From Escherichia phage vB_EcoM_SYGD1: 64,000 nucleotides of DNA. The position numbers and the translations under genes are program-made. The notes beneath the pieces are model-generated. The model had not been told where the DNA came from. It did not search any database and saw only the letters and a list, made by a program, of their open reading frames with translations. Below are positions 37,964-38,648 of this stretch, in pieces. Where the stretch lies: sequence record MW883059, one strand, 5' to 3'. Position 1 is the first letter of the stretch, and the number at the start of each line of letters is the position of its first letter.

Positions 37964-38193
37964 TGTCTGAACAAACTATTGAACAAAAACTGTCTGCTGA
38001 AATCGTAACTCTGAAGTCTCGTATCCTTGATACGCAGGACCAAGCGGCTCGTCTGATGGAAGAATCCAAAATTCTGCAAGGAACTTTGGCTGAAATTGCT
38101 CGTGCAGTAGGTATCACTGGCGATACTATCAAAGTTGAAGAAATCGTTGAAGCTGTCAAGAATCTTACTGCTGAATCTGCTGATGAAGAATAA
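37963..38193 (+). CDS. 57A: gp57A tail fibre assembly chaperone
   Basis: ORF track 76 aa; coiled-coil; synteny. Confidence 0.8.
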
Positions 38194-38648
38194 TGGAATT
38201 TAAAGACTTTTCAACGGGTCTTTATGTAGCAGCTAAGTTTTCAGAATTAACACTTGATGCGCTGGAAGAACTCCAGCGCTCTTTACGTGTTCCTAATCCA
38301 GTTCCTAGAGAAAAAATTCATTCGACCATATGTTATTCAAGAGTAAATGTTCCGTATGTTCCATCAAGTGGAAGTTTTGAAGTAGCTTCTTCTGGACATT
38401 TAGAAGTATGGAAAACACAAGATGGATCGACTCTTGTACTTGTGCTAGATTCTGAATATCTGCGCTGTCGACACATGTATGCGCGGGCACTAGGTGCTAC
38501 ACATGATTTTGATGATTACACACCGCATATAACATTGTCTTATAATGTTGGGCCCTTATCATTTAGCGGTGATGTACAAATTCCGGTCGTATTAGATCGT
38601 GAATACAAAGAGCCTCTTAAACTCGATTGGGCAGACGATTTAAAATAA
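38193..38648 (+). CDS. 57B: gp57B, 2H phosphoesterase (Acb1 anti-CBASS homolog)
   Basis: ORF track 151 aa; two H-x-T/S motifs (HSTI, HITL); position after 57A. Confidence 0.75.

What the first reader, a model, noticed from the sequence alone, without database searches (positions are those of the whole stretch)
38193..38648. 57B carries the two HxT/S motifs of a 2H phosphoesterase, matching the anti-CBASS enzyme Acb1
The translation contains HSTI and HITL about 85 residues apart, the hallmark of 2H phosphoesterases. The gene is in the 57B position after 57A. T4 gp57B has been characterised as Acb1, which degrades cyclic nucleotide immune signals, so this phage most likely encodes the same counter-defence.
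Basis: partly seen in the sequence, partly recalled or inferred. Interest (0 to 1): 0.45.

Follow-up and report, generated by a model that had tools for sequence, protein, structure and literature searches.

The report
T4 Acb1 anti-CBASS nuclease gene (57B)

Summary
The ORF at 38193-38648 (+), 151 aa, is real. Its product is 100% identical to residues 2-152 of phage T4 gp57B/Acb1 (NP_049750.1). The DNA differs from T4 at 5 of 456 positions, all synonymous. It matches Pfam PF23474 (Acb1) at E=2.6e-60 and the crystal structure of phage FBB1 Acb1 (7T26) at E=4e-62. An AlphaFold model (pLDDT 90) superposes on 7T26 at 0.8 Å.

The two motifs, HST (H43) and HIT (H112), are the published catalytic tetrad H44/T46/H113/T115 of T4 Acb1, shifted by one residue because this allele lacks T4's first Met. 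They lie 69 residues apart, not about 85. All five published base-contacting residues are also present.

Gene order matches T4: 2, 3, 1 (dNMP kinase), 57A, 57B, internal head protein genes, tRNA cluster. The window comes from a T4-like Tequatrovirus.

The best explanation is a metal-independent 2H phosphodiesterase that linearises 3'3'-cGAMP, cUA, cAAA and similar CBASS signals. This has been shown experimentally for the identical T4 protein.

The verdict is: already known, low interest. Two points are worth recording. Many GenBank and RefSeq records mislabel the gene as "RNA ligase". The same window also carries Acb2 (Vs.4).

The parts
38193..38648 (+). acb1 (gene 57B): 151-aa 2H phosphoesterase, anti-CBASS nuclease Acb1
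   Evidence: ORF. 100% identical to T4 NP_049750.1 residues 2-152. 451/456 nt identical to T4, and all 5 differences are synonymous. Pfam PF23474 Acb1, E=2.6e-60. PDB 7T26, E=4e-62. AF2 model pLDDT 90, Foldseek 7T26 rmsd 0.8 Å.
38319..38327 (+). First catalytic HxT motif: H43-S44-T45 (T4 numbering H44/T46)
   Evidence: Motif position. H is invariant and T is present in 36/37 homologues. Catalytic role shown for T4 and FBB1 Acb1 (PMC9117128).
38526..38534 (+). Second catalytic HxT motif: H112-I113-T114 (T4 numbering H113/T115)
   Evidence: Motif position. H and T are invariant in 37/37 homologues. The H44A/H113A mutant of T4 Acb1 is inactive (PMC9117128).
38610..38645 (+). C-terminal segment, residues 140-151, containing E140 (adenine N6 contact) and W146; it includes the region equivalent to the published C-terminal 'lid' (residues 145-152) that closes over the ligand
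   Evidence: E141 and W147 (T4 numbering) are present. Lid residues 145-152 are described in PMC9117128. The model shows a lower-confidence terminal helix at 146-150, consistent with a flexible lid.
37963..38193 (+). Gene 57A (tail-fibre assembly chaperone), immediately upstream. Its TAA stop overlaps the acb1 ATG by one base (TAATG).
   Evidence: Pfam PF17594, E=4e-51. Overlap read from the sequence. It has a 12-nt deletion relative to T4.
38662..38690 (+). Promoter-like site (TTTACA-17-TACTAT with a TG extension) in the 57B-IP intergenic region. It serves the downstream internal-protein gene and marks the 3' end of the 57A-57B unit.
   Evidence: Consensus scan. The hexamers are conserved between the window and T4 while the spacer diverges. 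Function is inferred, not tested.

Best explanation
The gene is acb1 (T4 gene 57B) of a T4-like Tequatrovirus.

Mechanism, shown by others on the identical T4 protein (PMC9117128):
- Its 151-aa product is a small, metal-independent 2H phosphoesterase.
- During infection it binds 3'-5'-linked cyclic di- and trinucleotides made by host CD-NTases, including 3'3'-cGAMP, cUA, cAAA and cAAG. Binding takes place in a U-shaped pocket lined by Y11, W73, F106 and W146 (window numbering).
- E140 reads the N6 of an adenine.
- The tetrad H43/T45/H112/T114 performs acid-base catalysis. The adenosine 2'-OH attacks the adjacent 3'-5' phosphodiester, giving a 2',3'-cyclic phosphate intermediate that is then hydrolysed to a linear 3'-phosphate product (GpAp).
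- Removing the second messenger keeps CBASS effectors (nucleases, phospholipases and others) from being switched on, so abortive infection is averted.

Shown here: sequence identity, conservation of every catalytic and ligand-contact residue, the fold, and the gene's position.

Inferred: that the protein is expressed in this phage, probably co-translated with 57A through the TAATG overlap, and that it acts as in T4.
For: - 151/151 identity to T4 Acb1; only 5 synonymous nucleotide differences.
- Pfam Acb1, E=2.6e-60, full-length match 1-144/144.
- PDB 7T26/7T27 FBB1 Acb1, E=4e-62.
- All nine published functional residues are present and conserved across 37 homologues.
- AF2 model pLDDT 90.2, superposing on 7T26 with TM 0.87/0.96 and rmsd 0.8 Å. 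The next hits are the BCSR5 phage phosphodiesterase, LigT and other 2H enzymes.
- Synteny 2-3-1-57A-57B-ip-tRNA, as in T4.
- Published biochemistry and genetics on the identical protein: substrate range, loss of activity in H44A/H113A, and a >300-fold CBASS-specific defect of T4 Δacb1. Transposon data show acb1 is conditionally needed only on a CBASS host.
Against: Nothing in the sequence argues against it. There are three caveats. No assay was done on this phage. Expression is inferred, because the promoter scan finds no more sites than in shuffled sequence (21 against 20.0 ± 4.7). The gene's benefit depends on the host carrying CBASS, and it can be a liability against Panoptes guard systems.
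Confidence: 0.97

Rival explanations
1. It is an RNA ligase or RNA-repair 2',5'-ligase of the LigT type, as the gene is labelled in RefSeq T4 and many GenBank phage records.
For: PHROG phrog_755 is described as 'RNA ligase' (E=5e-68), and that label appears on the T4 RefSeq record and on many relatives. The model has weak fold similarity to E. coli LigT (E about 2.5e-4, TM about 0.5, 13% identity).
Against: The label is a name carried over from the 2H superfamily, not a tested function. The resemblance to LigT is at superfamily level only, whereas the match to Acb1 is near-identical (rmsd 0.8 Å). NCBIfam has no matching model. The identical T4 protein was shown to be a cyclic-oligonucleotide phosphodiesterase, and T4 Δacb1 grows normally without CBASS.
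Confidence: 0.01
2. It is an accessory factor for tail-fibre assembly that works with 57A. This is the historical reason for the name 57B.
For: It lies immediately downstream of 57A with overlapping stop and start codons (TAATG), which suggests co-expression.
Against: The protein has an enzyme fold and a conserved catalytic tetrad. T4 Δacb1 plates normally on hosts without CBASS, and transposon insertions in the gene are tolerated on K-12. It is therefore not needed for virion assembly.
Confidence: 0.01
3. The two HxT/S motifs are a chance occurrence in an unrelated small ORF.
For: 17% of shuffles of this protein contain at least two HxT/S motifs.
Against: Full-length identity to T4 Acb1 and E-values of about 1e-60 against the family model and the crystal-structure sequence. 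Both motifs sit on invariant columns of the alignment.
Confidence: 0

Closest known systems
Phage T4 Acb1 (gp57B, NP_049750.1)
   Same: The amino-acid sequence is identical over all 151 residues. The gene neighbours are the same (1, 57A upstream; an internal-protein gene downstream). The catalytic tetrad and ligand-contact residues are the same.
   Different: It lacks T4's annotated first Met. The 57A stop codon is TAA instead of TGA, which turns ATGATG into ATAATG, so residue numbers are T4 minus 1. There are five synonymous nucleotide differences.
Erwinia phage FBB1 Acb1 (PDB 7T26 apo, 7T27 with 3'3'-cGAMP)
   Same: Same family and same fold: E=4e-62, 66-68% identity, rmsd 0.8-1.1 Å to the model. 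Both have the HxT/HxT tetrad.
   Different: About a third of the residues differ. FBB1 has a one-residue insertion after the fourth strand, and its first motif is HTT rather than HST.
Burkholderia phage BCSR5 phosphodiesterase / distant Acb1 (PDB 9Q2G, 9Q2Y)
   Same: 2H fold with a lid; the depositors call it an anti-CBASS Acb1. Foldseek E=5e-9 to 2e-7; sequence E=0.004.
   Different: Only 17-19% identity, TM about 0.68, and it is longer (about 165 aa). It is a distant branch, not the T4 clade.
LigT / 2',3'-cyclic nucleotide phosphodiesterase group of the 2H superfamily (e.g. E. coli LigT, 5LDI)
   Same: Two HxT/S motifs on a pseudo-symmetric β-sheet fold, with metal-independent acid-base chemistry through a 2',3'-cyclic phosphate.
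   Different: 12-16% identity, TM 0.4-0.58, E≥2.5e-4. The substrates differ: RNA ends and 2',5' linkages for LigT, against cyclic oligonucleotide immune signals for Acb1. This group is the source of the misleading 'RNA ligase' label.

Membership tests
Acb1 (Pfam PF23474; anti-CBASS 2H phosphodiesterase) | Full-length sequence match to the family model above the curated threshold | tested here: met
   202.7 bits against a cut-off of 27, E=2.6e-60, covering profile positions 1-144 of 144. 100% identity to the founding member, T4 gp57B.
Acb1 (Pfam PF23474; anti-CBASS 2H phosphodiesterase) | HxT/HxT catalytic tetrad aligned with T4 H44/T46/H113/T115 | tested here: met
   H43/T45/H112/T114 are the same residues by identity. 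They are invariant or nearly invariant in 37 homologues.
Acb1 (Pfam PF23474; anti-CBASS 2H phosphodiesterase) | Nucleobase-stacking aromatics (Y12, W74, F107, W147) and the adenine-reading E141 | tested here: met
   All are present at T4 position minus 1. The residue list comes from PMC9117128.
Acb1 (Pfam PF23474; anti-CBASS 2H phosphodiesterase) | Compact 2H phosphoesterase fold with a central β-sheet pocket and a C-terminal lid | tested here: met
   AF2 model pLDDT 90.2, pTM 0.83. Foldseek top hits are 7T26 and 7T27, with TM 0.87-0.96 and rmsd 0.8-1.1 Å. This is a prediction, not a solved structure.
Acb1 (Pfam PF23474; anti-CBASS 2H phosphodiesterase) | [quoted passage not shown] | not testable with these tools
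   Shown experimentally for the identical T4 protein (PMC9117128; HIDEN-SEQ preprint). Not assayed for this phage.
LigT-type 2',5' RNA ligase ('RNA ligase' label, phrog_755) | Close sequence or structural similarity to LigT, and RNA ligase or CPDase activity | tested here: not met
   There is only superfamily-level fold similarity (E≥2.5e-4, TM about 0.5, 12-16% identity). There is no NCBIfam hit and no Pfam LigT-family hit. Activity was not testable here.

The most novel reading that the evidence does not exclude
The most novel reading the evidence leaves open is that this allele, or Acb1 in general, has a further physiological substrate or role beyond CBASS signals. Examples would be degrading cA3 from type III CRISPR systems in natural hosts, or acting as the trigger that guard systems such as Panoptes sense. 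A related possibility is that losing T4's first ATG changes its translational coupling to 57A and its dosage. Because the protein is identical to T4 Acb1, any such property would belong to T4 Acb1 as well and would not be specific to this window.
Probability: 0.05. Interest if true: 0.3.

Novelty: already known. Interest (0 to 1): 0.08.

Why it matters
For the biology of this phage, the finding predicts resistance to CBASS systems that signal with adenine-containing 3'-5' cyclic di- and trinucleotides. Together with Acb2 (Vs.4) at 48900-49166, the phage has a double anti-CBASS kit made of a nuclease and a sponge. It also predicts vulnerability to Panoptes-type guard systems, which fire when cyclic nucleotides are depleted.

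For annotation, it is a clear case where the widespread 'RNA ligase' or 'hypothetical protein' label should be replaced by 'anti-CBASS protein Acb1'. That label is present even on the T4 RefSeq record.

It adds no new biology. At least 498 phage records carry a protein at least 99% identical.

Tried and rejected
- I tested whether the motif pair alone is significant. It is not: 17% of shuffles also have at least two HxT/S motifs. The claim therefore rests on homology.
- The NCBIfam scan returned nothing, because the library has no Acb1 model. This is uninformative rather than negative.
- The promoter and terminator consensus scan gave no enrichment over shuffles (21 against 20.0 ± 4.7 promoters; 2 against 2.8 terminators). 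No specific promoter for 57A-57B can be assigned. Only the site downstream of the gene, which is conserved with T4, was noted.
- The 'RNA ligase' annotation was considered and rejected.
- A tail-fibre assembly role was considered and rejected on published T4 genetics.
- I checked for a frameshift, truncation or inactivating change, as reported for phage Bas43 and for Panoptes escapers. There is none: the ORF is intact and identical to T4.

Full report
**Observation.** The window has an ATG-to-TAA ORF at exactly 38193-38648 on the + strand, encoding 151 aa. The translation contains two, and only two, HxT/S motifs: HSTI starting at H43 and HITL starting at H112. The ORF directly upstream (37963-38193) is gp57A (Pfam PF17594, E=4e-51). 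The one before it (37238-37963) is gene 1, dNMP kinase (PF21448, E=3e-105). This is the T4 order 1-57A-57B.

On its own the motif pair is not statistically remarkable, since 17% of shuffles of this protein carry at least two HxT/S motifs. The case rests on homology, and the homology is overwhelming.

**Identity.**
- BLASTP against the T4 57B product (NP_049750.1, taken from NC_000866) gives 151/151 identities to T4 residues 2-152.
- At the DNA level 451 of 456 positions are identical, and none of the five differences changes the protein.
- The one-residue length difference arises because the 57A stop codon is TAA here and TGA in T4. T4's ATGATG start region therefore reads ATAATG here. Only the second ATG is available, so residue numbers are T4 minus 1.
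- The 57A stop and the acb1 start overlap by one base (TAATG), which is compatible with translational coupling. That coupling is inferred.
- Pfam gives a single full-length hit, PF23474 'Anti-CBASS protein Acb1' (202.7 bits, cut-off 27, E=2.6e-60).
- The PDB sequence search gives FBB1 Acb1 (7T26/7T27) at E=4e-62 and a distant Acb1 (9Q2G) at E=0.004.
- tblastn finds the protein in 1470 phage records, 498 of them at 99% identity or more, including phage T6. Identity falls progressively through Klebsiella, Aeromonas, Acinetobacter and Vibrio T4-like phages.

**Catalytic and ligand-binding residues.** Hobbs et al. (PMC9117128) identified T4 gene 57B as Acb1 by activity-guided fractionation. They solved the FBB1 structures and defined three sets of residues: an HxT/HxT tetrad (H44, T46, H113, T115), stacking aromatics (Y12, W74, F107, W147), and E141, which contacts adenine N6. 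They showed that H44A/H113A is inactive. All nine residues are present here at T4 position minus 1.

In an alignment of 37 homologues reaching down to 28% identity, conservation is as follows:

| Residue (window numbering) | Conservation |
|---|---|
| H43, H112, T114 | invariant |
| T45 | T in 36/37, S in 1 |
| Y11 | 35/37 |
| E140 | 34/37 |
| W73 | W or F in all 37 |
| F106 | F or Y in 36/37 |
| W146 | 32/37 |

**Fold.** An AlphaFold2 model built on that alignment has mean pLDDT 90.2 and pTM 0.83. Only the first 5 residues and the C-terminal tail are of low confidence, which fits the published flexible lid. Foldseek against the PDB returns 7T26 and 7T27 first (E=3e-20 and 1e-19, TM 0.87-0.96, rmsd 0.8-1.1 Å). 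Next come the Burkholderia phage BCSR5 phosphodiesterase (E about 1e-8), then E. coli LigT, Usb1, CPDases and viral 2',5'-phosphodiesterases at E≥2.5e-4. This is the expected pattern for an Acb1-clade member of the 2H superfamily.

**Mechanism.** Because the protein is identical to T4 Acb1, the published mechanism applies directly. It is a metal-independent, two-step cleavage 3' of an adenosine through a 2',3'-cyclic phosphate intermediate, giving a linear 3'-phosphate product.
- Substrates are 3'3'-cGAMP, cUA, cAAA and cAAG.
- cGG, cA4 and 3'2'-cGAMP are not cleaved.
- Acb1 blocks activation of the effectors Cap5, Cap4 and CapV in vitro.
- T4 Δacb1 has a >300-fold replication defect, but only on hosts with active CBASS.
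- Transposon mapping independently shows that 57B/acb1 is dispensable on K-12 and depleted on a CBASS host.
- T4 transcriptomes place acb1 and acb2 in the middle/late class, matching the onset of activity about 15 min into infection.

Identity, residues, fold and synteny are shown here. Expression and activity in this particular phage are inferred.

**Context.** The window is a T4-like Tequatrovirus, presented as the reverse complement of the T4 GenBank orientation. The best 25-kb matches are about 96-97% identical over about 90% of the query, for example T4_ev151, Salmonella phage Manna and Yersinia phage PYPS2T. The window is therefore a mosaic relative of T4 rather than T4 itself.

Downstream of acb1 lie two internal-head-protein genes, three small conserved ORFs, and a cluster of eight tRNA genes. 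About 10 kb further on, at 48900-49166, is a homologue of Vs.4/Acb2 (PF24729, E=7e-20; PDB 7UQ2, E=1.9e-57). The phage thus carries both the nuclease and the sponge arms of anti-CBASS defence, as T4 does.

**Rivals.**
- *RNA ligase.* This label is attached to the gene in RefSeq T4 and many other records. It traces to the description of phrog_755. It reflects 2H-superfamily ancestry rather than tested function, and the fold similarity to LigT is only at superfamily level.
- *Tail-fibre assembly role.* This is excluded by the normal growth of T4 Δacb1.
- *Chance.* This is excluded.

**Novelty and verdict.** The feature is already known: it is the T4 Acb1 protein itself, present at 99% identity or more in at least 498 sequenced phages. 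Interest is low.

Recent work makes the gene a double-edged trait. Type II Panoptes restricts Tevenvirinae phages with intact acb1, and escapers inactivate the gene. For type I Panoptes and T4, acb2 rather than acb1 was the necessary trigger. The intact allele here predicts CBASS evasion and possible sensitivity to Panoptes.

Noticed in passing
window 38727-38999 and 39060-39371 (+): Two tandem internal-head-protein genes (phrog_7673, E=2e-53; phrog_2667, E=8e-42) sit where T4 has the single ipI. Both begin MKTFKEFINEA, sharing MKTFKEF with the N-terminus of T4 IPI (probably the capsid-targeting leader; that reading is from my own knowledge). Their bodies look nothing like T4 IPI when the printed sequences are compared; no alignment was run. 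The ORF listing starts the first gene at a TTG at 38715, but the ATG at 38727 matches the T4 ipI start and the 273-nt CDS annotated in phage SF2-1.
   Followed up: partly
window 46333-47304 (+): Lysozyme e (46333-46827) is followed after 60 nt by denV (46888-47304). In T4, ipIII and ipII lie between these two genes. This phage therefore lacks ipII and ipIII at that locus and instead has two IP genes next to acb1.
   Followed up: partly
window 48900-49166 (+): An 88-aa homologue of Vs.4/Acb2, the cyclic-oligonucleotide sponge (Pfam PF24729 Acb2_Tad1_hairpin, E=7e-20; PDB 7UQ2 'Vs.4', E=1.9e-57). The phage encodes both Acb1 and Acb2.
   Followed up: partly
window 38170-38195 (+): 57A is 76 aa here against 80 aa in T4. 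A 12-nt in-frame deletion in the acidic C-terminal tail turns ADEAKDEE into ADEE. The stop codon is TAA instead of TGA, which removes the first of T4's two tandem ATGs for 57B.
   Followed up: yes
annotation of homologues (e.g. L001 3953-4411, L002 2506-2961): The T4 RefSeq record NC_000866 and many GenBank phage genomes label 57B/Acb1 as 'RNA ligase' (from phrog_755) or 'hypothetical protein'. Among the records listed in the two searches, only one carries 'anti-CBASS protein Acb1'.
   Followed up: yes
protein P0001: A 152-aa protein 99% identical to T4 Acb1 is recorded in NCBI as a hypothetical protein of Enterococcus faecalis, on a 3-kb contig. This is probably T4-like phage DNA contaminating an assembly rather than a real Enterococcus gene.
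   Followed up: no
window 40906-42264 (+): A cluster of eight tRNA genes (Gln, Leu, Gly, Pro, Ser, Thr, Met-CAT, Arg). A 221-aa ORF (41519-42184) lies between the CAT-anticodon tRNA and tRNA-Arg, in the position of the T4 homing endonuclease segB. T4 annotates the CAT tRNA as tRNA-Ile.
   Followed up: no
window 50849-51316 (+): A 155-aa macro-domain protein (PF01661, E=1.9e-5, 25 bits against a cut-off of 22), three ORFs upstream of thymidine kinase (separated from it by 51298-51525 and 51516-51728), corresponding to T4 tk.4 ('A1pp phosphatase motif'). A possible ADP-ribose-processing role was not examined.
   Followed up: no
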